The translations under genes and the position numbers were made by a program. Under the pieces are notes generated by a model. That model was not told the DNA's origin. It saw only the letters and a program-made list of their open reading frames with translations, and ran no database searches. DNA of 64,000 nt from a virus (lineage: Duplodnaviria > Caudoviricetes): the IMG/VR virus record IMGVR_UViG_3300046779_001841, positions 64,001-128,000 of that record. One strand, written 5' to 3'. This document shows, piece after piece, positions 1,753 through 43,835 of this stretch. Each line of letters starts with the position of its first letter. Position 1 is the first letter of the stretch.

Positions 1753-3789
1753 TTATCCAAGTAGGGGTCCATAATCTTCTAAAGAAAAATAAGATATAGG
1801 TAAAAACAAATCTTCAGCATTTAAAGGTGTTTCTCCATTACCATTACTATTTTGACAATCTATGATAGAACCTATGACTAAATCGGTAACAGAACCACAA
1901 TCAAAAGTTTCAATAACTCGACCTTGATTATCAATCTCTATATTGAGATTTGTATTCGCTGGATTGAATTGTGAAGTATTACTATCCCAAACAAGTGTTT
2001 GACCATCTTGTATTGCATTTATATTTACATCTGTTAGATCATTGATAGACATATTCAAATTATTTACATCTACTAATGATGTGATGTCATCATTGATTGT
2101 TAAAATATCACCAATATTGACACCACCTATTGTAGTTGCCAAATTCAAAATGGTAGAACTAATAGCACCTGTATTATCAAGCAATAAAACTTCATTTGCA
2201 TCTGTTCCTGCATCATAAGTAACACTAGAACCTGTTCCTGTTATGATAGAAATATCAATAACACTATTGATCCAGCTAGTTCCATTAAATAAAAGAACAT
2301 CATTCTCATTTGGTGTAGGTGCATTAACATCTGTTAATTGGTCTAAACTTGTAGCACCACCACCACCATTTGCATCTACATAATCTACAACCCATTCGGT
2401 AGTAGCAACTCTAGTGCTATCATCATTTGCCAAAGGTGTTGTTGCAGTAGCTTGTGCCAAAGATGAAGAAGTAGTGATTGTTAAACTATCACTTGCGATT
2501 TCACCAATAAAAGAATTTGTGACTGCATCAAGTCTAGGTAGATTTTCGCTATCTGTAAGATCTGTACTTGCTAATTCCAAATCACCTTTTAAAGTATTTA
2601 TATCAATAAGAGCATTTATATCAGTCGATGTTGTTAATATATCTCCGATACTAACACCACCTATGGTAGTAGCTAAGTTTAAAATTGCACTATCAATAGC
2701 ACCATTATTATCTAATAATAAGACTTCATTGGCTTGAGTACCTGCATCATAACCAACACTATCACCATAACCACTAATAGTAGTGTCAATATTTGCCAAA
2801 GCAGTATCAAGTTTACCTAAAGCAACATGATGACTATCATTATCAGCAATAAAATTAGTAGATGAATAAATAGGTCTAGCACCATCTGGATCTAAACCTA
2901 AACTAGATTGTGTAGTATCGAGTTCTGTTTGTAAATCTGCGATTTGAGTAGCACTAGGATTTAAGATTTCTAACCATTCAGTACCTGTTGAGATAAAAGT
3001 TTGGAAAGTATCTATAGTGATATAAACATCACCAACATTATCAAGACTAGGTGCAGGTCTATCTGCTAATAACCCTGATTCTACATGGGTTATAGCTAAA
3101 TCAGGTAATTGACTAGATTTAATATGACCATTTTCATCTAAAGTAGGAATAGCACCTTGAATATTACCAGCAGTAGTATCCAGAGCAGTAATTTGAACAA
3201 AGTCAGTGGAATCTAAACCATCAAGTTTATCAGCATCAAGATTTGAGTTATCTTCTGCAATAATATTTTTAATGTTCGTGTTATTAAAATCAGCACTATC
3301 TAATTTATCATTGATCGCAGTTTGTAGATTATCAGTAATAGTAGTCGTTGCTAAAGTATTGACATCACTTAAATCAGCAGATGATAAAACAACATTAACA
3401 AAATTTGCACCATCATATTGTAAAACTTCACCACTAACAACATCTGTAATCGTGACATCTGTTAATTGATCTAGTGATGTTGCACCACCACCACCACCAT
3501 TAGCAAGAACCCATGCTTTGGTAGCAACATCTTGATCATCAATAGGATCAGCAACATTAGTAATTCTAACTGTTTGACCACCAAGATTGTCTAAAAGACT
3601 AAAAGTACCATTAGAAGAAATCAAAACATTTGATAAGTTTGATTTCAACATTTCATGACCACCAACAGTCACATTATCGTGTAATCTTAAAGAATTATTG
3701 CTGGTATTCATTGTCAATTCACCAACAAGACCTGTAAAGGTTTGATGTTGAACTGCAGTACCTCTTCTTAATTGGACTTGCCTAGACAT
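1753..3789 (-). CDS. Tail fibre-like protein with Mtd_N-type N-terminal domain (678 aa)
   Basis: VQLRRGT...GELTMNT...LRLHD..T.GG start; LDQLTDV repeats; STRVATTEWV motif; G/T/D/N-rich; AGGAG SD. Confidence 0.8.
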   Translation of the reverse strand: MSRQVQLRRGTAVQHQTFTGLVGELTMNTSNNSLRLHDNVTVGGHEMLKSNLSNVLISSNGTFSLLDNLGGQTVRITNVADPIDDQDVATKAWVLANGGGGGATSLDQLTDVTITDVVSGEVLQYDGANFVNVVLSSADLSDVNTLATTTITDNLQTAINDKLDSADFNNTNIKNIIAEDNSNLDADKLDGLDSTDFVQITALDTTAGNIQGAIPTLDENGHIKSSQLPDLAITHVESGLLADRPAPSLDNVGDVYITIDTFQTFISTGTEWLEILNPSATQIADLQTELDTTQSSLGLDPDGARPIYSSTNFIADNDSHHVALGKLDTALANIDTTISGYGDSVGYDAGTQANEVLLLDNNGAIDSAILNLATTIGGVSIGDILTTSTDINALIDINTLKGDLELASTDLTDSENLPRLDAVTNSFIGEIASDSLTITTSSSLAQATATTPLANDDSTRVATTEWVVDYVDANGGGGATSLDQLTDVNAPTPNENDVLLFNGTSWINSVIDISIITGTGSSVTYDAGTDANEVLLLDNTGAISSTILNLATTIGGVNIGDILTINDDITSLVDVNNLNMSINDLTDVNINAIQDGQTLVWDSNTSQFNPANTNLNIEIDNQGRVIETFDCGSVTDLVIGSIIDCQNSNGNGETPLNAEDLFLPISYFSLEDYGPLLG

Positions 3790-3848
3790 ATTATACTCCT
3801 CTTTTATATAGATTTCATAAAGAAGGAATACATTTAAAAATTATTGCA

Positions 3849-12175: not shown

Positions 12176-12739
12176 TTAATATATCGCTTTATATCCAAAT
12201 TCTTGTTTGTGTGTTCCTCTTAATAATGAGATGTTATCTTTTATATATGAAAGGTTTTCATATATATCTTTCAAATCTGGAATGTGTTTCATTTCATTTA
12301 AAGATTTGATTAAAGTATATCTCACTTTGCCTTGTGTTTCACCAATAAGAGTAGCAACTCTTGATTGACTAGACCATAAATATATATAAACAAGAATAGT
12401 CAAAGTTCTATCTGTATAATATTTAGATAATCGTTCTTCTAGTTCTTCTTTAGTATATTTAGTGATCTTAACCATTTTAGATAAACGATCAATACTTTTT
12501 TGGATGCGATAATGAATATTTGGTTGTGTAAAACCAAATATTTTACCAAGCACTGCTTGTGGAATACCTTTAAGAAAAAGTTCTATAATATCAGCTTCTA
12601 AAGGACTTATTAAATCTAATTGTTCTAAAACAATTTTAAATTTTTCTTCATCTTCTTCAGACATATCTTTTTGTATAGCGATATTATCAAAAAAAGAATC
12701 TTTATCGGAAAAAAGACTTTCCATTAATCGTGGATCCAT
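12176..12739 (-). CDS. Sigma-70 region 4-like HTH protein with a second HTH-like segment
   Basis: LSPLEADIIELFLKGIPQAVLGKIFGFTQPNIHYRIQKSIDRL fits the sigma4 HTH pattern; second segment SQSRVATLIGETQGKVRYTL. Confidence 0.65.
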   Translation of the reverse strand: MDPRLMESLFSDKDSFFDNIAIQKDMSEEDEEKFKIVLEQLDLISPLEADIIELFLKGIPQAVLGKIFGFTQPNIHYRIQKSIDRLSKMVKITKYTKEELEERLSKYYTDRTLTILVYIYLWSSQSRVATLIGETQGKVRYTLIKSLNEMKHIPDLKDIYENLSYIKDNISLLRGTHKQEFGYKAIY

Positions 12740-12743
12740 GTTT

Positions 12744-13382
12744 TTACTCCAAACAGAAATTGTCTAATAAAGTTAAGATTTCGATAGATCGCATCTTGAT
12801 CATCACTATGTAATATTGAACTTCTTCATTAAGCTGTGTTCCTTTTTTACTCTTGGTTGTTCTGCAACCATTTTCAATCCATTTGCGAACCATAGCTTTT
12901 CTTAATTCTATTATATCTGGTTTTTCGTATGGAAACCAATCATCATCATTTGTGTTTAAGATGTCTATGATTTCACATTCCATGCCATTAAAATCACCAT
13001 CTTTTATTTTTACGATATTTCCAATTTTAAATTTGCCACCTTTATCACTGGCTTTTTTAACCATTGCTTTCAAATCACTATCTAGGATAACACCACTACC
13101 CGTTAATCCAGATCTTTCATCATATTCACTGACTATTCTCAAAACATATTGTGTTCTAGTCAATGAATAGTAATTATTAAAAGGATAACAATTTTTTATA
13201 AATATGTAACCTTCTAAAAGATTTGTTGAACACTCACCAGTCTTTATGATAGGAATAAAAACATCTGTTGGTTTAAATCTATTATTTCTACAGACAATAG
13301 AAAGAAGATTGCCATGTCTAGCTTCATCTTCACCTTTTTCTGTAAGTTCTAAGATAACCCAATTTTCTTCTTTTAATGCCAT
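12744..13382 (-). CDS. nusG: NusG/RfaH-like transcription elongation or antitermination factor
   Basis: NGN-like N-terminus (NWVILEL...LLEGYIFIK) and KOW motif FKIGNIVKIKDGDFNGMECEIIDI. Confidence 0.75.
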   Translation of the reverse strand: MALKEENWVILELTEKGEDEARHGNLLSIVCRNNRFKPTDVFIPIIKTGECSTNLLEGYIFIKNCYPFNNYYSLTRTQYVLRIVSEYDERSGLTGSGVILDSDLKAMVKKASDKGGKFKIGNIVKIKDGDFNGMECEIIDILNTNDDDWFPYEKPDIIELRKAMVRKWIENGCRTTKSKKGTQLNEEVQYYIVMIKMRSIEILTLLDNFCLE

Positions 13383-13399
13383 ATATATACCTATGGTGT

Positions 13400-14560
13400 T
13401 TATTTGTTTTTCATTTTATCCTTTACTATACTAAAAAACATCGGTAAGTTTAGCGATTCTTTCTTTTTTTCATCAATATTATTTTTTTCTTCTTGCATGA
13501 CAATATTCTTAAAGCCTATCTTCCATTTCATCACATCACAAATTAACATAGCATTTGTCGGTCTAATTGGCTTGGATGCGAGTTCATCAGCTAATTGCAA
13601 CAAATTATTCCCATTTTTTAACCATGCTTCTTTTAAAATCTCTGTATTCCAGTATGGAGGTATGTTCGTCAAACCAAGTCCAATATTTAATGCTAACATA
13701 CTTGCTTCTATTAAACGATCATAAGCAACACCTACTGGTGTTGTTTCTAAAATCTTAGAAAGTAGTTCACTTGCTTGTCTGGCATCTGCATTTAAAACAT
13801 TTGCCAACAAGTCATTTCTATCTATGTGTAAATAAGACCTTACTGATTTCATATCTATATGTTTATTAAATCCAGATGAAATACCTTCCACTGCTTTCAA
13901 GGCATCTCTAATATGATATTCAGTAATATTCGCTATCAATTTCAATGCTTGATAATCATAAGTAATACTTTCTTTTTCACAAACATGAACAAGACGGTTT
14001 GCAATTTGATCATCAGATGCAGGTTTAATAATAAAAGACATTGCCCTAGATAAAATGGTTTGTCTTAGCTTTTGAATTTCAGTAGTGCAAAAAATACAAA
14101 CAAGTTTCTTTTCTAAACTATTTGGTCTATTATCTTCTAAAGACTTTAATAACAAATCTAAAGATTGTGTAGATAAAGCGTGTGCTTCATCAAAACAATA
14201 TAATCTTCTTCTACCACTAAAAGTAGTGTAGTCGATTTCTTCTAAAACTTTCTTTAAATCTTCTTTACCACTATTCGTTGCACTATCTACTTCGATATAA
14301 GAATCGGATGTACCTTCAAGCATAGAAATACAAGAATAGCATTTATCACAGGCTTCTCCATTAACAGGTGCTTCACAAAGCAATGCTCTAGCAAGTATTC
14401 TTGCAGTGGTTGTTTTACCTGTACCATAACCACCACTAAAAACATAACTAGAAGTCCATCCTTTGCCATTAGAAACAACACCTTTTAAAACTTGAACAAT
14501 AGGTTCTTGACCAATCAAGTCTTGATATGTTCTTGGTCTGTATTTAGTATCAAAAGACAT
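13400..14560 (-). CDS. dnaX: DNA polymerase III gamma/tau-like clamp loader ATPase
   Basis: KYRPRTY.DLIGQE, Walker A GGYGTGKTT, Zn motif LLCE..CDKCYSC, DEAH, LLKSLE. Start reassigned to MSFDTKYRP (AAGGA SD). Confidence 0.9.
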   Translation of the reverse strand: MSFDTKYRPRTYQDLIGQEPIVQVLKGVVSNGKGWTSSYVFSGGYGTGKTTTARILARALLCEAPVNGEACDKCYSCISMLEGTSDSYIEVDSATNSGKEDLKKVLEEIDYTTFSGRRRLYCFDEAHALSTQSLDLLLKSLEDNRPNSLEKKLVCIFCTTEIQKLRQTILSRAMSFIIKPASDDQIANRLVHVCEKESITYDYQALKLIANITEYHIRDALKAVEGISSGFNKHIDMKSVRSYLHIDRNDLLANVLNADARQASELLSKILETTPVGVAYDRLIEASMLALNIGLGLTNIPPYWNTEILKEAWLKNGNNLLQLADELASKPIRPTNAMLICDVMKWKIGFKNIVMQEEKNNIDEKKKESLNLPMFFSIVKDKMKNK

Positions 14561-27941: not shown

Positions 27942-27985
27942 TTAAAATCCTTTCTTTTGTATGTTATACTTATAACATTAGAAAC

Positions 27986-28083
27986 CATAGTTTCATTTTC
28001 AATGTTAAATTTTCAATACACTTTCAATATGGCTTTTTTGCCATTGCAGAAACCTTTTGAAAATTTAATCCAGCATTTCTACA
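27986..28083 (+). repeat. 98-bp dispersed non-coding element, copy 1
   Basis: ATAGTTTCATTTTC…TTTTCAATACrCTTTCAATATGGCTTTTTTG…AGCATTTCTACA recurs with the same spacing at 38301-38398. Confidence 0.8.
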
Positions 28084-28093
28084 GGAATGACTT

Positions 28094-30669: not shown

Positions 30670-31818
30670 ATGACTAAAAATAGGATTTGTGAAATGGATA
30701 AAAATCTTTTAGTAAAACTTTATGCTGAAAAACCTGCAAGTGATATTGCTAAACAACATAATCTTAAACCTTTTCAAGTTCAAGAACTCTTAAGATTATA
30801 TGATATTCCTAAACCATACAGAAATAAAGATGGTAAAGCATTAGATATAAATCATATCCAAGATCTCTATCACAAGCAATCTATGTCTATTAAAGACATT
30901 TGCTTAATGCTTAATGCCAGTACAGATATGATAACCAATCTTTTATATACACAACAAGAGAAAACTAAACCTACTCTTGAACAATTAAAAGATTGCTTAA
31001 ATCTATCTAAAAGACAAATCGCTATCAAGTTTGGTCTTAAAGAATATGACATTCATAGATTGTTGTTAGAATATAACTTAATTTCTAATCCATACAATGT
31101 TTCTAAAGAACAAGCATCTAAAGAATATGAAACACTTTCTGTTGATCAAATCGCTAGAAAGCACCATATAGAACCTATTAATGTTTCTGTAAAACTTAAA
31201 GAATATGGTTTGATTAAAGATGTAAATATTGAGCAACTTAGAACTCTTTATTGTGATGAAAGAAAAACGATCAAAGAAATTCTTTCTATCTTAGAAACAT
31301 CTGAAACCACTTTATGGCGTTTGATTAAGAAACATAAACTTCAACGACCTTTTAATCCAGATCGCAAAGAGTTTTTTAAACTTTGGAATAATAACACCAA
31401 AACAGTAGGTGAGAATATCAAACTGATGGCTGATTATTATAAAGTATCTGTAAATGCAATTCGCTTGACTGCTAAAAAGTTAAATATCAGTAAAAAGACA
31501 ACTCCTATCAAGATCAAATATACTTCTGATGACTTACAAAAACTCCTCAACAAGCATGGTCTTTTTGGATTGTCTGTTATTCTTCAAATGACTGTGCCTA
31601 ATGTTAAGCGTGCTTTAAGAAGATATGACATCACGATTAAAAAAACACCTGTTAAAGAACCTGATATAGAAGCAATAACACATCTATATCAAACTAAACA
31701 TTTACATCTTAAAAAACAATATTCTATACTAGAGATTGCAAAAGAGTTGAACATGAAACCCACACCACTTCAAAAATTGATAAAAAAATATAAAATTTTG
31801 CGACCTTCGTTGCAATGA
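30670..31818 (+). CDS. Tandem-HTH DNA-binding protein (about 8 repeats)
   Basis: About 45-aa repeats of pattern L..LY…S..(D/E)IA..L……+…+..Y.I; no nuclease motif seen. Confidence 0.7.
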   Translation: MTKNRICEMDKNLLVKLYAEKPASDIAKQHNLKPFQVQELLRLYDIPKPYRNKDGKALDINHIQDLYHKQSMSIKDICLMLNASTDMITNLLYTQQEKTKPTLEQLKDCLNLSKRQIAIKFGLKEYDIHRLLLEYNLISNPYNVSKEQASKEYETLSVDQIARKHHIEPINVSVKLKEYGLIKDVNIEQLRTLYCDERKTIKEILSILETSETTLWRLIKKHKLQRPFNPDRKEFFKLWNNNTKTVGENIKLMADYYKVSVNAIRLTAKKLNISKKTTPIKIKYTSDDLQKLLNKHGLFGLSVILQMTVPNVKRALRRYDITIKKTPVKEPDIEAITHLYQTKHLHLKKQYSILEIAKELNMKPTPLQKLIKKYKILRPSLQ

Positions 31819-31878: not shown

Positions 31879-32097
31879 ATGTTAGAAGCACTTATTCATT
31901 CAACAGACACTTTCTGTTTTTTAGTAGATGAAAACTACTTAGATTTTCCCAACCATCTTATTGCTTTTGAAGAAGATATGTTTGGCAATTTATATCTAAT
32001 TCAAAAAGACTGGGTGTTTACTAAAACACCAGTGGATTATGAAGAAGCATTATCTCTAGTTCAAAATTTAAAAAATACTTTTATTGATCTTTATTAA
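31879..32097 (+). CDS. Hypothetical protein
   Basis: SD AAAGGA; downstream of the promoter. Confidence 0.7.
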   Translation: MLEALIHSTDTFCFLVDENYLDFPNHLIAFEEDMFGNLYLIQKDWVFTKTPVDYEEALSLVQNLKNTFIDLY

Positions 32098-32308
32098 TAT
32101 TTGGTGCGGTATGCACATTTTGAGATAAATGCCAATTCGCTTTTCTTCTTGGATCTATAAATAGTCTGGCATTAAAAAATGCCATTACTCTACGAAAATT
32201 CTCTTCTTCTACTGGTTTTGATGTTCCACCATACGGACACGATAGTAAAAATATAAAATCAGAATTTCTTCTTACATCATTAGAAGACATCTCAAAGTGA
32301 AATAACAT
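32081..32308 (-). CDS. MTase-associated small module, copy 7
   Basis: SSNDVRRN..FIFLLS…EENFRRVMAFFNAR…NW; paralog of the six ORFs upstream. Confidence 0.7.
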   Translation of the reverse strand: MLFHFEMSSNDVRRNSDFIFLLSCPYGGTSKPVEEENFRRVMAFFNARLFIDPRRKANWHLSQNVHTAPNINKDQ

Positions 32309-32555
32309 CTTTTTTACTCACTTTTGGTGCTAGATATACACTATTTGTATTTTTCCATGTAGATTTCACTAAACTTCTTATACTCAATATCGTGATGCTC
32401 TTTCTTAGATTTTCTTCTTCTATATATACTGCACTACTCTTTATTCTTTTCTCATCTCTCAATGAATAATTTGATGACAATAAACAAGTCTTTATAGTAG
32501 TATGTGCAACATCATTACAATCTGCTATCAAAAATCCAATCGGATGATTATTCAT
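32292..32555 (-). CDS. MTase-associated small module, copy 6
   Basis: IGFLIADCNDV…LLSS…EENLRKSITILSIRS…TWKNTNSVY; ATGA overlap. Confidence 0.72.
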   Translation of the reverse strand: MNNHPIGFLIADCNDVAHTTIKTCLLSSNYSLRDEKRIKSSAVYIEEENLRKSITILSIRSLVKSTWKNTNSVYLAPKVSKKDVISL

Positions 32556-32812
32556 TTATTTACTCTACCTATATAGACATCATTAGAATTTATCCATGTG
32601 TTTTTAGCTAAAGATCTTACACTAAACAAAGTTAAAAGTTGTCTATTATTCTCACTATTTTGTTTATATAAATAACGACCTTGACCTTTTAAATCATCTC
32701 TTCTATCATTTCTTGGACTTAATAAAGTTGTAGATAAAAGACTTGTACCTTGCACTGCATGATATACATCATTTGATTCTAATAGAAGAAAAGCTATCAT
32801 ATTATTCGCCAT
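32552..32812 (-). CDS. MTase-associated small module, copy 5 (start MANNM)
   Basis: IAFLLLESNDVYHAVQGTSLLS…LFSVRSLAKNTWINSNDVY. Confidence 0.72.
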   Translation of the reverse strand: MANNMIAFLLLESNDVYHAVQGTSLLSTTLLSPRNDRRDDLKGQGRYLYKQNSENNRQLLTLFSVRSLAKNTWINSNDVYIGRVNK

Positions 32813-33059
32813 TCTTTTCAAGAAATACATCACTATCATTTATCCAAGTAGGTTTTGGCAAACACCTTGCACTGAATAATCCTATTGTCTTTCTTATATT
32901 ATCTATATTCTCACTATAGATAAAGATTCCCAGTCCTTTTAATAATCCCCGCCTATCATCTCTTGGATATATTAATGGTGAAGATAAAAGACTTGTACCT
33001 TGTCTTGCATGGAAGATATTATTCGCATCACACAAGAAAAAAGCTATTTGACTATACAT
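32802..33059 (-). CDS. MTase-associated small module, copy 4
   Basis: IAFFLCDANNIFHARQGTSLLSS…DNIRKTIGLFSAR…TWINDSDVF. Confidence 0.72.
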   Translation of the reverse strand: MYSQIAFFLCDANNIFHARQGTSLLSSPLIYPRDDRRGLLKGLGIFIYSENIDNIRKTIGLFSARCLPKPTWINDSDVFLEKNGE

Positions 33060-33340
33060 ATTTGTTCTTTCTTTGGATCAAAATACAAGTTGGATGTTAT
33101 TGCCCAATTCTTTTTATTTCTTGAATCTATTATACATCCTGATCTACAAGTATAAAATGCTATTGCTCTTCTAAAGTTATTCTCATATATATCTCTGTTT
33201 CTAGCTATATATAGATCCACGCTCTCTCTAAAATTATTTTCATCTACTCTTAAACTTAGACTAGACATAAAATAGATAAAACTATCATTCATATCTAAAG
33301 TGTTTGAATTATTACCAAACCAACATATCATTTTTTTCAC
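33044..33340 (-). CDS. MTase-associated small module, copy 3
   Basis: ICWFGNNSN…FMSS…ENNFR (duplicated internally)…FYTCRS…NW. Confidence 0.68.
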   Translation of the reverse strand: MKKMICWFGNNSNTLDMNDSFIYFMSSLSLRVDENNFRESVDLYIARNRDIYENNFRRAIAFYTCRSGCIIDSRNKKNWAITSNLYFDPKKEQICIVK

Positions 33341-33548
33341 TCACTATAAAAGTATCTGGATCATTTATCCAAGTATGCTTTGGTAAAGATCTTATACTAA
33401 ATAACACTACAGACTTTCTTATATTATTCTTAGCTATATAGAATCCACCATATTTTGACAAACTATTTTGTGACAACAAACAAGTTATTCGACTAGCTTC
33501 AGACATATTATTCGCATTCGCTGATAAATAACATACATGATCATTCAT
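33312..33548 (-). CDS. MTase-associated small module, copy 2
   Basis: VCYLSANANNM…LLS…NNIRKSVVLFSIRSLPKHTWINDPDTF. Confidence 0.72.
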   Translation of the reverse strand: MNDHVCYLSANANNMSEASRITCLLSQNSLSKYGGFYIAKNNIRKSVVLFSIRSLPKHTWINDPDTFIVSEKNDMLVW

Positions 33549-33759
33549 TTTCTTTTCCTATACAGACATCACAATCATTCATCCATGTATGTTTTGAAAC
33601 TGAACGAACAATAAATAATGACAATATCTTTCTTAGATTTTCTTTATAGACAGGTATTCCATGCAAACTAGCATATGTTGATGATAATATAGATGTGTTT
33701 TGTGAAAATTCACTAACATTATTACCATTACTATAATGGTAACCTATCTGCTCTTTCAT
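33541..33759 (-). CDS. MTase-associated small module, copy 1
   Basis: IGYHYSNGNNV…ILSS…ENLRKILSLFIVRSVSKHTWMNDCD; ATGA overlap with the MTase stop. Confidence 0.72.
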   Translation of the reverse strand: MKEQIGYHYSNGNNVSEFSQNTSILSSTYASLHGIPVYKENLRKILSLFIVRSVSKHTWMNDCDVCIGKENE

Positions 33760-35315
33760 TCTTTCAAAAATCCATGTTCATATACCCCAGGTCTTAACTT
33801 ATCTGCTAATGCTTTATGCAAATCTTTTAACTTCTTAAAATCATCTTTATATTCATCTTCCCAAAATCCTTTTAACTGATACCATCCACAATCCCAACAA
33901 TTTAATTGTAACTGTGGATTCGCACTAGCATATGCTTCTCTCTTGTCTAATGACTTAACCCATAATTCAGTCGCATGAACTAATAAATCCACTGCTTCCT
34001 GACTTAATGTCAAATCTCCTATCAAAGTCGCTACATACGATTCTTCATAATGCTTCTCAAAATCTGCATATACCACTGGACACTTTTCTTTTAATAATCC
34101 TTTAATGCCATATCTTTCTAACCAAAAGAAATGATTCTTAATCTGCCAAATCTCTCCACCCCAAGATACATCTCTCATGCTTGTACAATTATTCTTCGTT
34201 TCAAATATACTGTATATATGACAATCATCCACCCATTGTTCATATCCTTCTTTTCTTTCCATTGGCTGTTTATGCTTTCCATTCTCATCTAACCACTTTT
34301 GTGTGAATGGTATTATAGGATGATCTACATATTCTATTTCCTTTGGTGGTGCTTTCTTAATCGGACCCGTCTTTTCTCTTTCTTTAATCTTTAACCCACT
34401 TGTCATGATTGGATACTCATATATTTCCATATCTTTGATTGGTTCTCTTACCCACTCACTCGCTGATTTATGATTATCGCAATTATAAATCTGTTTCCAT
34501 CCATAATGACTTGTATCTTCATTCTTAATTTCTATCTTCGGTTCTTTCTTTGTCTTTCCTTCACTCCAAATTGTAAATCCCACACCCCACTCTGATGATA
34601 CTCCACTAAATGCACTCGCATTAAAGAAAAACCCAGACTTAAATTCAAAATGATTGTAATACCATTCTCTAAACTTTTTTGCAGTTTCTTGTATCATAAA
34701 CTTAATCGGTGAAAAGAAACATAAACTAATCTTCTTATATCCAAAATATTTCGCTTGTCTTACACACTCAAATATAAATTGAAAATATAAATTCGATCTG
34801 CACGCTCCTAAATGCAACATCTTCTCTTTCACTAAGGTATCACTCACACCTTCTTTGTTTTCTTCATCATCTGCCAATGTCCCAGCGGCCGCATAAGGTG
34901 GATTCATAAAAAATACCAACCTTTTATTTTCTCTTGCACCTTTTGTCAATTTGTCTTGCACTGCATCTGGTATCGCATTTTCTGCATCACCTAAACTAAA
35001 TAAACATCCATCTGTATCACTTGGATTTAAAAAGTCATATTTAAATGCTTGGGTCAAACCTTGTTTATGCAATAAATCTACTTCTGGTTGCTCTAATGTT
35101 GATACTATCAAATTTGTAAATTCATAATCTCTAATCAAATTTCCTGTTCCAGAACAACAATCCCATACGATACATTCTTCTCTCCAATTTCCACCTAAGG
35201 TCTGTTCAATCAATTTGTGTGATTCATCCGCCCAAATCTTTGGTGTAAAAAATGCACCTTGTCTGGATCTAATTTCATTTTCTAATGTTTCATCATATCT
35301 TTGATGTTCACTCAT
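33756..35315 (-). CDS. Orphan amino (N6A/N4C) DNA methyltransferase, Type IIG-like MTase core with no nuclease domain
   Basis: GAFFTP, motif I WDCCSGTGNL, motif IV MNPPY, F.AS.FSGVSSEWGVGFTIW; starts immediately before FFTP. Confidence 0.82.
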   Translation of the reverse strand: MSEHQRYDETLENEIRSRQGAFFTPKIWADESHKLIEQTLGGNWREECIVWDCCSGTGNLIRDYEFTNLIVSTLEQPEVDLLHKQGLTQAFKYDFLNPSDTDGCLFSLGDAENAIPDAVQDKLTKGARENKRLVFFMNPPYAAAGTLADDEENKEGVSDTLVKEKMLHLGACRSNLYFQFIFECVRQAKYFGYKKISLCFFSPIKFMIQETAKKFREWYYNHFEFKSGFFFNASAFSGVSSEWGVGFTIWSEGKTKKEPKIEIKNEDTSHYGWKQIYNCDNHKSASEWVREPIKDMEIYEYPIMTSGLKIKEREKTGPIKKAPPKEIEYVDHPIIPFTQKWLDENGKHKQPMERKEGYEQWVDDCHIYSIFETKNNCTSMRDVSWGGEIWQIKNHFFWLERYGIKGLLKEKCPVVYADFEKHYEESYVATLIGDLTLSQEAVDLLVHATELWVKSLDKREAYASANPQLQLNCWDCGWYQLKGFWEDEYKDDFKKLKDLHKALADKLRPGVYEHGFLKE

Positions 35316-35374
35316 TCGTAATCTACCTTTTAGTTTATATCGTAAAGATTTTACAAATTCTCTTATAGTTTATA

Positions 35375-35647
35375 TTAAAAATATCTTCCCACTTCTTTTA
35401 ATAATTCTCCTATCGTCTTTTTTGTCAATTTAACATCTATCAATTTACCATTCTTTAAACACACATACAACTTATCATTCAATTCATCTTTCTTATCTAA
35501 AATTAGTTCCGCTTTATCATTCCAAATATATATCTTTCCTCTTTCTTCACACACCATCATCTTATTCATTTCTATACAATGCTTTTTGATACGATCATAT
35601 AATATTCTTCTTGGTGTGTGAAATGCCAGTAAATATACATCATACAT
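35375..35647 (-). CDS. Hypothetical protein
   Basis: ORF in a tightly packed operon. Confidence 0.6.
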   Translation of the reverse strand: MYDVYLLAFHTPRRILYDRIKKHCIEMNKMMVCEERGKIYIWNDKAELILDKKDELNDKLYVCLKNGKLIDVKLTKKTIGELLKEVGRYF

Positions 35648-41871: not shown

Positions 41872-42894
41872 ATGGCAGTATCAAGAACTCCAGTTTTAAA
41901 TGTAAATGGCTTTAACAAATCTTTCAGTGGTATCACTGCTCAAGTCAATCCTATCACTGATATTGAATTAAAGAAAGCTAATGCTTTTGCACCAGCTATT
42001 AAGCACTATGTACCTACAACAGATAGATGGGTTCAACTTGCAGTCATGACTGCTTTAAAGTCAAAAAAACATTTGTATGTGCATGGTAAAGCTGGTTCTG
42101 GTAAAGATGCTTTATTTCAACAAGTAGCAAATCAATATAGAATACCATTCATCAATCTATCTTTCAAAGAAGGTATTGATGTTAATGAGTGGATTGTAAG
42201 AAGAGAAATAAAAGCAGAAGCTGGTGGTTTCTCAACCAAAGTTGAAGAAGGTGTCTTGTTAAAAGCAATTAAAGGTTTTCAAACTCAAGATGGTAGTTTA
42301 ATTCCATACATGATTTTGATCAGTGATATGGATAGAGCATTGCCAAGTCAATTAGAAATCTTAAGACAAGCCTTACAAGAAGGTACAAGTGCATACTTGA
42401 TCAATCCTATTGATGGTGAACCTATCAATGTATTACAAGGTACTTTGTTTGTAATGACTGGTAACAGTGCTTTAGATGGTGATCTTAGAGGAAACATGGT
42501 ATCAAATAGACTTGATGCAAGTATCTTGAACAGATTGGTCTGTATTAGAGCAACCAATCCAACTGATGCTTTCTTTGTGAAAATCCTAGCTAATGAGTTT
42601 CCTACCTTAACACAAGATCAATGCCAGTTGTTAATCACTTGCATGAATGCAACTAGCAAGATGGCAGAAGAACTTGCACTACCTATTGAAATTTCAATTA
42701 GAACTACCAAGGCTTGGGCAAGACTTGCTATTGATAGTTTAGATTGTGGTTTAGCTAAAAACTTTAAACAAGCTATCCAATTTGGTTTTGATGGTGTGAT
42801 TGATGGTTTCTTTAGCAATCCTGCTCAAGCAGAAAGCATTAGAGGTGCAATAGATAATATTGTAGGTGGTAGTGCAGAAGCAGTTAATTCTTAA
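41872..42894 (+). CDS. MoxR/CobS/CbbQ-type AAA+ ATPase (start MAVSR)
   Basis: Walker A GKAGSGKD, Walker B-like ILISDMDRA, sensor MTGN, LDASILNRL (arginine finger). Confidence 0.8.
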   Translation: MAVSRTPVLNVNGFNKSFSGITAQVNPITDIELKKANAFAPAIKHYVPTTDRWVQLAVMTALKSKKHLYVHGKAGSGKDALFQQVANQYRIPFINLSFKEGIDVNEWIVRREIKAEAGGFSTKVEEGVLLKAIKGFQTQDGSLIPYMILISDMDRALPSQLEILRQALQEGTSAYLINPIDGEPINVLQGTLFVMTGNSALDGDLRGNMVSNRLDASILNRLVCIRATNPTDAFFVKILANEFPTLTQDQCQLLITCMNATSKMAEELALPIEISIRTTKAWARLAIDSLDCGLAKNFKQAIQFGFDGVIDGFFSNPAQAESIRGAIDNIVGGSAEAVNS

Positions 42895-42909
42895 AAATCT
42901 TTTTCATGA

Positions 42910-42957
42910 TTGCAAAGACTGCTTAAGCATAAGTGTTATAAGAATGTCGATAACGAC
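42910..42957 (+). promoter_or_regulatory. Repeated promoter/hairpin element
   Basis: TTGCAA-N15-AAGTGTTATA-N5-GTCGataaCGAC. Confidence 0.8.
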
Positions 42958-42980
42958 TTAACAAAAAAAAGGAAAATAAA

Positions 42981-43835
42981 ATGGCTTTTGATTATCAAGC
43001 ATTTAGAGAAGATTTAAAAAAATATGCAGTCATTAAGACCAATGATCTAAGAAGATTGCTAATTGATGAACAAAACAAAAAAACATTCACAAAGAATGGT
43101 TTGTCATTAAATGGTAGAGGTCTTGTGAATACTGCTATTGCAGTTGCCAATTCAAGAGAAAATCTTGATAGGTATAAAACATTCCAACAAAAACAAACCA
43201 CTTTGGCAGGTTTTTCATTTGCATTTGATTTTTCAGCATCTATGAATAGTGCTATTGAAGAACAAAGAGGTTTACCAATTCCAGCCAGTGCTAATAAAAT
43301 CTCAAGATATAGAGCATTAGTGTATGCTATGGAAAGTCTATTGAATGTAATCACTCCATTTGGAATAAAATCCTATATAGGTGGTGTGTTATTTGAAAAT
43401 AGTAGAGAACATAGAAATCAATTCACTACCAGCACTGATAGCATTCAAATCAATTTAAAAGTCATTAAAAAAGACACTGAAAGATTTGATATTCAAAAAG
43501 CATTTACAGGAACTCAACCTAACAATAATACCTATCTTTGTGCTTATGCTCAAGGTGCCATAGAAATGGCAAAAAGAATTAAGGGTGTGGATAAAAGAAT
43601 TGCTATCTATATGACTGATGGTGATGATGGTGCTTCTATGCCTTATCTCAAATCTATTCAAGACCAAGCCAAAGCACAAGGTATTGATCTTATTTGTTGC
43701 ACTTTAAAATGTGGTGTTTCTCAAAAAACTATTGATCTATTAAAAAATCAAGGTGTAAATCTTATTTGCATTAATGATCCATTAGATTTTATAAGTGCTT
43801 TAACTGATGTTCTCAAAAACATTTATCTTGCTTAA
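42981..43835 (+). CDS. vWA (MIDAS) domain protein, CobT C-terminal-like
   Basis: FAFDFSASM (DxSxS), NNT, YMTDG; preceded by a G.LNGR.L motif. Confidence 0.78.
   Translation: MAFDYQAFREDLKKYAVIKTNDLRRLLIDEQNKKTFTKNGLSLNGRGLVNTAIAVANSRENLDRYKTFQQKQTTLAGFSFAFDFSASMNSAIEEQRGLPIPASANKISRYRALVYAMESLLNVITPFGIKSYIGGVLFENSREHRNQFTTSTDSIQINLKVIKKDTERFDIQKAFTGTQPNNNTYLCAYAQGAIEMAKRIKGVDKRIAIYMTDGDDGASMPYLKSIQDQAKAQGIDLICCTLKCGVSQKTIDLLKNQGVNLICINDPLDFISALTDVLKNIYLA

What the first reader, a model, noticed from the sequence alone, without database searches (positions are those of the whole stretch)
32081..35315. Orphan DNA methyltransferase followed by seven free-standing, diverged copies of a putative specificity module
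Seen in the sequence: seven 70-95 aa paralogs follow the NPPY MTase directly, chained by ATGA or 8-29 nt overlaps. They share the frame (I/V)(G/A/C)(Y/F/W)…N(N/D)…LLSS…EN(F/L/I)R+…LF..RS…TW.N..D.(Y/F), with very different residues in between. From recall of full-length Type IIG-like MTases of this family: exactly such a segment (LGY…NNV…SS…NF.+…F.AR…W.N..DEY..P) lies between the P.MSSGL motif and the Y..W..D..IYSLF motif, in the target-recognition region. In this MTase those two flanks (PIMTSGLKIKE and YEQWVDDCHIYSIF) are joined by an unrelated linker of about 40 aa. Inference: the phage has split the specificity element out of the enzyme and carries a library of plug-in modules, giving one MTase core several target specificities (anti-restriction). 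Alternatively, the modules are decoys that poison host Type IIG enzymes. Multispecific phage C5-MTases carry their TRDs in cis; a trans-acting TRD array would differ.
Basis: partly seen in the sequence, partly recalled or inferred. Interest (0 to 1): 0.92.

Follow-up and report, generated by a model that had tools for sequence, protein, structure and literature searches.

The report
Split phage methylase with plug-in modules
A 316-kb freshwater phage encodes a DNA adenine methylase that lacks the most variable piece of its DNA-reading domain, and encodes that piece separately as 12 different mini-proteins (7 directly behind the enzyme) that probably plug back in one at a time to change which DNA sequences are marked.

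Summary
A 519-aa NPPY methyltransferase (33756-35315, minus strand) is followed by seven overlapping 72-95-aa paralogs.

- **Origin of the modules.** They are homologous to a ~70-aa segment that about 830-aa phage relatives carry in cis (hhalign E 1.4e-12). That segment lies in the centre of the target-recognition domain of a Type IIG/IIL-like fold.
- **Variability.** Its N-terminal half is the most variable part of the family.
- **The gap.** The window enzyme and its clade carry a conserved short linker in its place.
- **Co-occurrence.** Free modules occur only with such gapped enzymes. Two complete cis-type phage genomes have none.
- **Relatives.** Some relatives carry 2-5 modules in cis.
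- **Docking.** A complex model places module 1 in the gap (ipSAE 0.85, best control 0.00).

New here:
- The genome holds 12 modules in three clusters.
- The missing N-terminal nuclease domain is a separate conserved gene, so the enzyme is not truly orphan.
- Close relatives differ by whole-module gain, loss and exchange.

Alternative DNA specificities are inferred, not shown. This scan found the same system earlier in two other phage genomes. I found no published description.

The parts
33756..35315 (-). Gapped gamma-class N6-adenine-type DNA methyltransferase core (519 aa). It has motifs X (GAFFTP), I (DCCSGTG) and IV (NPPY), a TRD scaffold and a C-terminal helical domain. It lacks the N-terminal nuclease domain and the central TRD segment, which a conserved linker replaces (residues ~313-357).
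   Evidence: for sequence. for the fold of full-length relatives. No Pfam or PHROG hit; weak PADLOC MTase_II/mad2/IIG hits.
33541..33759 (-). Module M1 (72 aa). Its start overlaps the MTase stop (ATGA). It is 100% identical in DNA to the copy in relative L001.
   Evidence: Docked in the complex model.
33312..33548 (-). Module M2 (78 aa), with an 8-nt overlap with M1.
33044..33331 (-). Module M3 (95 aa from the ATG at 33331), of the 'MICWF' subtype, with an internal duplication of the ENNFR helix start. Absent from close relative L086.
32802..33059 (-). Module M4 (85 aa) with a long basic variable loop. Absent from L086.
   Evidence: Alone it is not confidently foldable.
32552..32812 (-). Module M5 (86 aa from the ATG at 32812) with a long basic variable loop. 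Absent from L086.
32292..32555 (-). Module M6 (87 aa), with an ATGA overlap with M5. Shared with L086.
32081..32308 (-). Module M7 (75 aa), of the 'MICWF'-like subtype, last of the array. Shared with L086.
32013..32030 (-). Terminator-like hairpin plus T-run just downstream of M7. It is a possible operon end (weak consensus match only).
35401..35428 (-). Promoter-like site (TTGACA-16-AATTAT) about 85 nt upstream of the MTase start. The number of such sites in the region is not above chance.

Best explanation
The locus is a phage-borne Type IIG/IIL-like enzyme that has been taken apart.

- **Ancestral form.** It is one chain of about 830 aa, common in huge phages: an N-terminal PD-ExK nuclease domain, a gamma-class N6-adenine methyltransferase domain, a target-recognition domain (TRD) and a C-terminal helical domain.
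- **The three pieces in this clade.** The nuclease domain is a separate 328-aa gene elsewhere in the genome. The 519-aa core keeps the catalytic domain and the TRD scaffold. The central TRD segment of three strands and a helix (about 70 aa) has been excised and replaced by a short conserved linker.
- **The modules.** That segment is encoded as 12 divergent mini-proteins. Seven are translationally chained behind the core gene.
- **How a module works.** Its conserved C-terminal half (helix NFRR..LF..R plus W.N..D.Y) docks against the core's YEQWVDD helix and C-terminus. Its hypervariable N-terminal half and variable-length basic loop stay exposed.
- **Inference.** Each module completes the TRD with a different DNA-reading surface, so a single catalytic core gives a family of methylases with different target sequences.

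Shown computationally: homology and position of the module, complementary presence and absence, purifying selection, module turnover, and a confident docking model.
Inferred: that the exposed half reads DNA, that specificities differ, and what the cell-level purpose is (self-protection from host restriction, or with the nuclease piece a multispecific restriction weapon).
For: - **Mapping.** The module profile aligns to P0072 residues 577-649, between the SSGL and YxQW motifs (probability 97.7%, E 1.4e-12). A profile of free modules only finds the cis segment in 810-830-aa proteins among 1.8 billion proteins (E ~1e-11).
- **Position.** The AF2 model of full-length P0072 has pLDDT 89.4. Its best Foldseek hits are DrdV, BpuSI, LlaBIII, MmeI, BrxX and BsaXI. 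VIA-align matches TaqI 21-410 to model 273-660 (Z 16, ~300 aligned), CamA 6-575 to 259-810 (Z 15.8) and MmeI 287-802 to 257-641. So residues beyond ~540 are the TRD.
- **Comparison with MmeI.** The MmeI TRD has two alpha/beta subdomains, and the 80-aa TRD-C reads four of six base pairs (PMC4833311).
- **Variability.** The module N-half has mean entropy 2.13, against a family mean of 1.35 and a C-half value of 1.21. It holds two of the three most variable 20-aa windows of the protein.
- **The gap.** All 12 close homologs (69-89% identity) share the same linker.
- **Co-occurrence.** None of the 73 other IMG/VR loci (L011-L083), nor the three full-length loci L007-L009 fetched earlier, has a free module within 10 kb. 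Gapped-type loci have 2-14. A gapped relative holds 19 free modules in a 147-kb fragment. Two complete cis-type genomes (536 kb, 312 kb) hold only the cis copy.
- **Cis multi-module relatives.** Five, four, three or two tandem modules occur in one chain. Repeats are ~40% identical in the N-half and 66-100% in the C-half.
- **Docking.** For MTase plus M1, ipSAE is 0.85 (runs 0.84, 0.85, 0.87) against a best control of 0.00. This mark was reached by 58 of 80 solved complexes and 2 of 110 mismatched pairs. There are ~206 contacts, partner pLDDT is at least 76, and the runs agree in at least 86% of contacts. Module residues 17-21 and 31-34 (the variable stretches) do not touch the core.
- **Foldability alone.** A module alone is poorly foldable in the Atlas (pLDDT 0.39).
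- **Selection.** Orthologous modules have dN/dS of 0.13-0.26.
- **Precedent for splitting.** The family also occurs as ~500 aa + ~310 aa and as 328 aa + 498 aa gene pairs.
Against: - No experiment and no methylation data exist. That the module faces DNA is inferred from position and variability, not seen.
- The TRD region folded alone (pLDDT 77) matched no solved TRD (best Z 3.0). The TRD assignment therefore rests on whole-chain superpositions.
- The complex model contacts catalytic-domain residues 203-210 and 230-244, so part of the module could be structural (hinge) rather than DNA-reading.
- Five of the 12 modules lie far from the MTase, beside DNA polymerase and helicase/primase genes.
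- The core keeps its own W.D.NG stretch, which duplicates the module's W.N..D.Y, so the fit is not a simple cut and paste.
- All gapped enzymes form one clade, so the co-occurrence is one evolutionary event.
- The docking model may partly recall the intramolecular arrangement of the cis family.
Confidence: 0.6

Rival explanations
1. The modules only complete the fold. Any one module restores a stable, active enzyme of unchanged specificity. The many copies exist for dosage, timing (different operons) or escape from inhibitors that bind this surface.
For: - The interface in the complex model is very large (~206 contacts) and mostly uses the conserved half.
- The modules sit in three differently placed gene clusters.
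- The isolated region has no independent TRD fold match.
Against: - The part that differs between modules is the most variable part of the whole family in cis enzymes too.
- The tandem cis repeats also diverge in that half.
- Each module type is kept under purifying selection across phages (dN/dS 0.13-0.26), which dosage copies would not need.
- Close relatives differ by whole-module gain, loss and replacement, the pattern of an arms-race locus.
Confidence: 0.13
2. The modules have an independent function. They are small DNA- or protein-binding proteins, for example acting on replication proteins, that merely descend from the TRD segment and no longer work with the methylase.
For: - Two copies directly follow the PolA-like gene, and three lie between the DnaB-like helicase and a primase-like gene.
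- A relative also has a distant cluster.
Against: - Free modules are found only in genomes whose methylase lacks exactly this segment.
- Seven are chained to the methylase stop codon.
- The docking half is the conserved half.
- The docking model is confident and its controls are null.
- A module alone is not predicted to fold.
Confidence: 0.1
3. The modules are decoys or inhibitors. They bind and poison related enzymes of the host or of competing phages.
For: Small, fast-evolving phage gene arrays are typical of counter-defence. The module can evidently bind a gapped core.
Against: - The family is phage-borne. All 74 loci came from viral contigs, and the contexts are phage-like.
- Full-length enzymes already hold the segment in cis, so there is no empty site to poison.
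- The only enzymes with an empty site are the phage's own.
Confidence: 0.04
4. The modules are silent DNA cassettes that recombine into the methylase gene (shufflon or gene-conversion type of phase variation) and are not translated.
For: Tandem diverged copies next to an expressed gene resemble hsdS and pilS cassette systems.
Against: - Every copy has its own start codon, in overlap with the preceding stop.
- There are no long identical DNA stretches. Copies are 60-81% alike even in the conserved half. There are no inverted repeats, no recombinase, and no homology to the methylase gene at the gap.
- dN/dS of 0.13-0.26 shows selection on the proteins.
- No methylase with a module in the gap occurs in this clade.
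Confidence: 0.02

Closest known systems
Type IIG/IIL restriction-modification enzymes (MmeI, BpuSI, DrdV; PDB 5HR4, 3S1S, 7LO5)
   Same: Full-length relatives have the same order of parts: N-terminal PD-ExK nuclease, gamma-class N6A methyltransferase, TRD and helical end. They give the best structural matches. In MmeI an 80-aa TRD-C subdomain reads most of the site, and specificity changes by a few residues there (PMC4833311).
   Different: No Pfam family of these enzymes is hit. The family is phage-borne. In this clade the nuclease is a separate gene and the central TRD segment is excised and multiplied. No Type IIG enzyme is known to take its TRD piece in trans.
Multispecific cytosine-C5 methyltransferases of temperate Bacillus phages (SPR, phi3T, rho11s, H2; Behrens et al. 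1987, listed in PMC4081073; details from my own knowledge)
   Same: A phage enzyme with one catalytic core and several alternative target-recognising units, each for another sequence, used against host restriction. The cis relatives with 2-5 tandem modules are the N6A counterpart.
   Different: Those are C5 enzymes with an unrelated TRD, and all units sit in one polypeptide. Here the units are separate 72-95-aa proteins.
Naturally split methyltransferases M.AquI and M.EcoHK31I (two polypeptides; PMC3404938)
   Same: One methyltransferase is assembled from separately translated pieces. In M.AquI the cut lies inside the variable (recognition) region.
   Different: Those are C5 enzymes with one fixed partner each. 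Here one core has 12 alternative partners, and a third piece (the nuclease) is also detached.
Type I and Type IIB systems with separate specificity subunits (HsdS; BcgI and BsaXI S subunits). Stand-alone plasmid hsdS genes in Lactococcus give new specificities with the resident HsdM/HsdR (from my own knowledge, not checked here).
   Same: Specificity is supplied in trans by an exchangeable subunit to a shared catalytic machinery, and several alternative subunits can coexist.
   Different: HsdS is a complete ~400-aa subunit with two full TRDs and coiled-coil spacers that binds two HsdM. Here the exchangeable unit is about half of one TRD, is not foldable alone, and inserts into a monomeric enzyme. 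There is no ATP-dependent motor.

Membership tests
Gamma-class N6-adenine (amino) DNA methyltransferases (TaqI/Eco57I/MmeI type) | Motif order X - I - IV (NPPY) with the TRD C-terminal to the catalytic domain | tested here: met
   GAFFTP (20-25), DCCSGTG (52-58) and NPPY (138-141) are invariant in the family alignment. The TRD follows the catalytic domain in the model.
Gamma-class N6-adenine (amino) DNA methyltransferases (TaqI/Eco57I/MmeI type) | Class I methyltransferase fold superposable on solved members | tested here: met
   For the full-length relative: TaqI Z 16.3, HsdM Z 16.4, CamA Z 15.8, MmeI Z 14.9. Foldseek E 5e-8 to 1e-4.
Gamma-class N6-adenine (amino) DNA methyltransferases (TaqI/Eco57I/MmeI type) | Match to the curated sequence models (Pfam N6_Mtase, Eco57I, MmeI_Mtase; NCBIfam) | tested here: not met
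   No Pfam hit at E<=1. NCBIfam gives only far sub-threshold hits. PADLOC MTase_II/mad2/IIG hits are at E 3e-4 to 0.06. PDB profile search gives E 0.15 to a Type I M subunit.
Gamma-class N6-adenine (amino) DNA methyltransferases (TaqI/Eco57I/MmeI type) | Transfers methyl to adenine N6 in DNA | not testable with these tools
   No methylation data. NPPY also occurs in N4-cytosine enzymes and in some non-DNA amino-methyltransferases.
Type IIG/IIL single-chain restriction-modification enzymes | Nuclease, methyltransferase and TRD in one polypeptide | tested here: not met
   The window enzyme starts at the methyltransferase domain. The nuclease domain is a separate 328-aa gene at genome position 42805-43791. 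The feature is met by the ~830-aa relatives, with D42/E55/K57 nearly invariant.
Type IIG/IIL single-chain restriction-modification enzymes | Complete TRD in cis that serves both activities | tested here: not met
   The central TRD segment is replaced by a linker in the window enzyme and in all 12 close homologs.
Multispecific phage methyltransferases (Bacillus phage C5 type) | C5-cytosine catalytic motifs, with several TRDs in tandem within the variable region of one chain | tested here: not met
   The motifs are of the amino-methyltransferase (NPPY) type and the modules are separate ORFs. Tandem cis modules exist only in other family members.
Split (multi-polypeptide) DNA methyltransferases | Separately translated pieces assemble into one enzyme | tested here: inconclusive
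   The complex model passes (ipSAE 0.85 against 0.00; 58 of 80 true and 2 of 110 false pairs reach the mark). Presence and absence are complementary. No biochemical evidence.
Type I restriction-modification (HsdS-type specificity subunit) | S subunit with two TRDs and conserved coiled-coil spacers, and an ATP-dependent HsdR | tested here: not met
   Modules are 72-95 aa, three strands and one helix, with no Pfam hit. The detached R-like protein is only the PD-ExK plus helical domain, without an ATPase.

The most novel reading that the evidence does not exclude
The three kinds of pieces still work together as a complete, phage-borne restriction-modification machine. The detached PD-ExK nuclease protein acts as R, the gapped methyltransferase core as M, and the 12 interchangeable modules as S-like units. 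This would be a Type I-like division of labour re-invented from a single-chain Type IIG enzyme. It would let the phage both mark its own DNA and cut host or rival-phage DNA at a dozen different sequences. New specificities would be traded between phages as 230-bp cassettes.
Probability: 0.3. Interest if true: 0.92.

Novelty: new variant of a known kind. Interest (0 to 1): 0.8.

Why it matters
- **Protection.** If the modules set specificity, one phage enzyme could protect DNA at a dozen motifs. Its repertoire could change by swapping 230-bp genes. That is a compact answer to diverse host restriction systems and a new way for DNA-recognition specificity to evolve.
- **Engineering.** It would give a natural, minimal (~75 aa) plug-in DNA-reading unit for an adenine methylase, and perhaps a nuclease. 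This is the kind of scaffold sought in work on MmeI-type enzymes (PMC4833311).
- **Family.** It defines a large, unannotated family of Type IIG-like enzymes in huge phages. No Pfam model hits it, and there were 1097 homologs in one search. Single-chain, two-piece, multi-module-in-cis and multi-module-in-trans forms all exist, so the steps of the transition can be studied.

Tried and rejected
- **Sequence libraries.** Pfam, PHROGs and PDB sequence searches of the enzyme and all seven modules gave nothing usable. One PHROG hit at E 0.018 to a 'DNA binding protein' for M6 was ignored as chance. NCBIfam, PADLOC and a PDB profile gave only weak methyltransferase hints.
- **Phage collection.** tblastn of the enzyme against the 50,697 GenBank phage records found no match.
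- **TRD folded alone.** The TRD region (P0072 503-665, pLDDT 77, pTM 0.50) had no solved-structure match (VIA best Z 3.0; Foldseek best E 0.77). I therefore could not show an independent fold match of the module to MmeI TRD-C, TaqI or HsdS TRDs. The piece probably does not fold as an isolated unit.
- **Module search in viral contigs.** The search for related loci with the module alignment failed because no stretch was conserved enough.
- **Cassette or shufflon idea.** Rejected: there are no long repeats or inverted repeats.
- **Promoter scan.** Not above chance.
- **Nuclease in a relative.** The detached nuclease gene was not found in the 147-kb fragment of a relative, but that record is only 47% complete, so this says nothing.
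- **RNA evidence.** No RNA run holds the stretch, so expression is untested.
- **Atlas feature search.** A module gave no usable hit.
- **Complex models not run.** Only module M1 could be tested in a complex.


Full report
**Observation.** On the minus strand a 519-aa ORF (33756-35315) carries NPPY at residues 138-141. Seven small ORFs follow it: M1 33541-33759, M2 33312-33548, M3 33044-33331, M4 32802-33059, M5 32552-32812, M6 32292-32555 and M7 32081-32308. Each start overlaps the preceding stop, either as ATGA or by 8-20 nt, so the eight genes form one tightly packed unit. A terminator-like hairpin follows M7, and a promoter-like site precedes the enzyme. Both are weak. The seven proteins align with seven invariant residues and 23-43% identity to M1. 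None of the eight hits Pfam, PHROGs or PDB by sequence.

**What the enzyme is.** A search of 5.8 billion proteins gave 1097 homologs. Twelve are close (69-89% identity, 510-557 aa). Most others are about 815-860 aa and 35-40% identical over the whole query. The long forms add about 255 N-terminal residues and about 70 residues between the SSGL and YxQW motifs.

An AlphaFold2 model of a long form (P0072, 814 aa, 77-sequence alignment) has mean pLDDT 89.4. Its best solved matches are the Type IIG/IIL and related enzymes DrdV, BpuSI, LlaBIII, MmeI, BrxX and BsaXI, followed by TaqI, CamA and BseCI. VIA-align gives these matches:
- DrdV 5-786 on model 1-588 (Z 17.6)
- TaqI 21-410 on model 273-660 (Z 16, about 300 aligned)
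- CamA 6-575 on model 259-810 (Z 15.8)
- MmeI 287-802 on model 257-641 (Z 14.9)

The N-terminal domain has nearly invariant D42, E55 and K57, a PD-ExK nuclease signature. So the family has the architecture of a single-chain restriction-modification enzyme with a gamma-class amino-methyltransferase. It is too diverged for the curated models.

The family is phage-borne. Contexts are phage-like. Seventy-four loci were recovered from IMG/VR viral contigs of up to 536 kb. The window's own genome is a single 316,221-bp virus record whose DNA polymerase is closest to an uncultured 485-kb phage. The stretch occurs in freshwater and lake metagenomes from 14 studies.

**What the modules are.** A profile of the seven modules aligns to the long forms at P0072 residues 577-649 (probability 97.7%, E 1.4e-12). 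The reverse test also works. A profile made only from long forms finds all free modules in the genome (E 6e-11 to 4e-5). In the model the segment is three strands, a helix and the W.N..DEY turn, in the middle of the region that superposes on the TRDs of TaqI, CamA and MmeI.

In MmeI the TRD consists of two alpha/beta subdomains, and the 80-aa TRD-C reads four of the six base pairs (PMC4833311). In CamA five TRD loops read the bases (PMC8187626). I could not obtain a residue-level superposition. The TRD region folded alone matched nothing. The statement 'central TRD segment' therefore rests on whole-chain alignments.

Across 77 long forms, the N-terminal half of the segment is the most variable part of the protein. 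Its mean column entropy is 2.13, against 1.35 overall. Two of the three most variable 20-residue windows lie in it. The C-terminal half is conserved (1.21).

**The gap and its complement.** The window enzyme and all 12 close homologs have the same conserved linker in place of the segment. More distant methyltransferase-only homologs of 561-607 aa keep the segment in cis. Free modules occur exactly where the gap occurs:
- L001, 86% identical enzyme: 14 modules.
- L004, 72% identical: 4 modules.
- L010, 82% identical: 12 modules within 10 kb.
- The 73 other IMG/VR loci and three further long-form loci: no free module within 10 kb.
- The 147-kb fragment holding L010: 19 free modules in three clusters.
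- Two complete cis-type phage genomes (536 kb and 312 kb): only the cis copy.

The gapped enzymes form one clade, so this is one evolutionary event, not many.

**The unit is autonomous.** The free-module profile, searched against 1.84 billion representatives, found 447 proteins. More than 100 are clusters of 66-99-aa free modules. It also found enzymes with several modules in tandem within one chain: five in P0121, four in P0123, three in P0122, and two in P0135, P0044, P0208 and P0230. Within these chains the repeats are about 40% identical in the N-terminal half and 66-100% identical in the C-terminal half.

The family is also found cut at other domain borders, as adjacent genes of about 500 + 310 aa (L071-L074, L076, L081) or 328 + 498 aa (L041).

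**Docking.** A complex model of the window enzyme with M1 was built with my own alignments. It gave ipSAE 0.85 (runs 0.84, 0.85 and 0.87) against 0.00 for the best of three controls. In the tool's calibration that mark was reached by 58 of 80 solved complexes and 2 of 110 mismatched pairs. The runs share at least 86% of their contacts, and the partner's pLDDT is at least 76.

The module's helix and C-terminal turn (residues 38-70) pack against four parts of the core:
- the YEQWVDD helix (358-380)
- the extreme C-terminus (504-518)
- the segment before the gap (282-311)
- part of the catalytic domain (203-210 and 230-244)

Module residues 17-21 and 31-34 touch nothing. These are the hypervariable stretch and the variable-length, often basic loop. 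A module alone is poorly foldable in the Atlas (pLDDT 0.39). The model may in part recall the intramolecular packing of the cis family. It shows that the piece can sit in the gap, not that it does so in a cell.

**Selection and turnover.** Orthologous modules in different phages have dN/dS of 0.13-0.26, so each type is a maintained protein. The arrays themselves are mosaics.
- A 407-bp block (M1 and most of M2) is 100% identical to L001, while the adjacent enzyme gene is 85% identical.
- The near relative L086 is 93-96% identical in the flanks. It has an extra module between the enzyme and M1, and one different module where the window has M3-M5.
- Contigs from other lakes likewise lack M3-M5.
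- There are no long repeats, inverted repeats or recombinase, so this is not a shufflon.

**Beyond the finding's borders.** The genome holds five more modules. Two lie directly after the PolA-like polymerase gene, and three lie between the DnaB-like helicase and a primase-like gene. Only one core enzyme exists.

The N-terminal nuclease domain is present as a separate 328-aa gene at genome position 42805-43791. It aligns end to end with residues 1-244 of the long form (E 6.8e-17). It ends where the window enzyme begins, and it keeps D42, E56 and K58. Stand-alone homologs of 328-347 aa with 60-95% identity exist elsewhere. So the enzyme is not orphan in the strict sense. The ancestral chain was cut into three kinds of pieces.

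**Interpretation.** The best-supported mechanism is trans-complementation. A module inserts its conserved half into the gapped TRD and presents its variable half. Different modules make enzymes of different specificity. I put this at about 0.6. The split-and-dock part alone I put at about 0.8.

Whether the outcome is self-protection against host restriction is open. With the detached nuclease it could instead be a multispecific restriction weapon against host or rival DNA.

Rivals are purely structural completion (0.13), an independent function for the modules (0.10), decoys (0.04) and silent DNA cassettes (0.02).

**Known relatives of the idea.**
- Multispecific C5 methyltransferases of Bacillus phages carry several TRDs in cis.
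- M.AquI and M.EcoHK31I are built from two polypeptides (PMC3404938).
- Type I and Type IIB systems have separate S subunits.

None combines a monomeric Type IIG-like core with an array of alternative partial-TRD mini-proteins. Four literature searches found no description of such a system.

This scan has already noted the same system in two other phage genomes, with 12 and 19 modules. Those notes agree with mine but are not independent evidence.

Noticed in passing
L084:3805-4791 (-) = genome C1:42805-43791, about 21 kb before the window's start: A stand-alone 328-aa homolog of the family's N-terminal PD-ExK nuclease plus helical domain, with D42/E56/K58 kept. It is conserved as a separate gene in relatives (60-95% identity). 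It lies among genes that begin with the shared MISQKLASLEARIAKLE leader.
   Followed up: yes
L005:2400-2844 (-) and L006:2273-3024 (-) = genome C1:138399-138843 and C1:208272-209023: Five further free modules outside the window. Two lie directly downstream of the PolA-like DNA polymerase gene. Three lie between the DnaB-like helicase gene and a primase-like gene.
   Followed up: partly
window ~27960-28092, compared with L086:9889-11412: The close relative L086 (95-96% DNA identity in the flanks) carries a 507-aa cytosine-C5 DNA methylase gene (PF00145) at a place where the window has nothing. This is a second methylase indel between near-identical phages.
   Followed up: no
window 33044-33331 (M3): M3 contains an internal partial duplication of the start of the docking helix (ENNFRESVDLYIAR followed by ENNFRRAIAFYTCR). 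This makes it the longest module.
   Followed up: no
window 35327-35396: Two tandem 35-nt copies (74% alike) lie in the short spacer just upstream of the methylase start. They may be a regulatory element.
   Followed up: no
P0121 (1004 aa), P0123 (777 aa), P0122 (743 aa), P0135, P0044, P0208, P0230: Family members with 2-5 modules in tandem within one chain. P0121 also begins with a C-terminal-domain piece before its methyltransferase domain (a fusion or permutation, or two tandem genes read through).
   Followed up: partly
L071-L074, L076, L081 (about 500 aa + 310 aa) and L041 (328 aa + 498 aa): The same enzyme family occurs naturally cut into two adjacent genes at other domain borders: nuclease+methylase | TRD+C-terminus, or nuclease | methylase+TRD.
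   Followed up: partly
window 30670-31818 (+) and L001:9777-10913, 12632-13563: A 382-aa protein made of repeated helix-turn-helix-like units borders the module array. Paralogs of it separate and border the two module blocks in L001.
   Followed up: no
L004:226-708 and 2944-3837: In the relative L004 the gapped methylase is flanked by a nucleoside 2-deoxyribosyltransferase-like gene (PF15891) and a second N6/N4 methylase (PF01555). This suggests a DNA-modification island.
   Followed up: no
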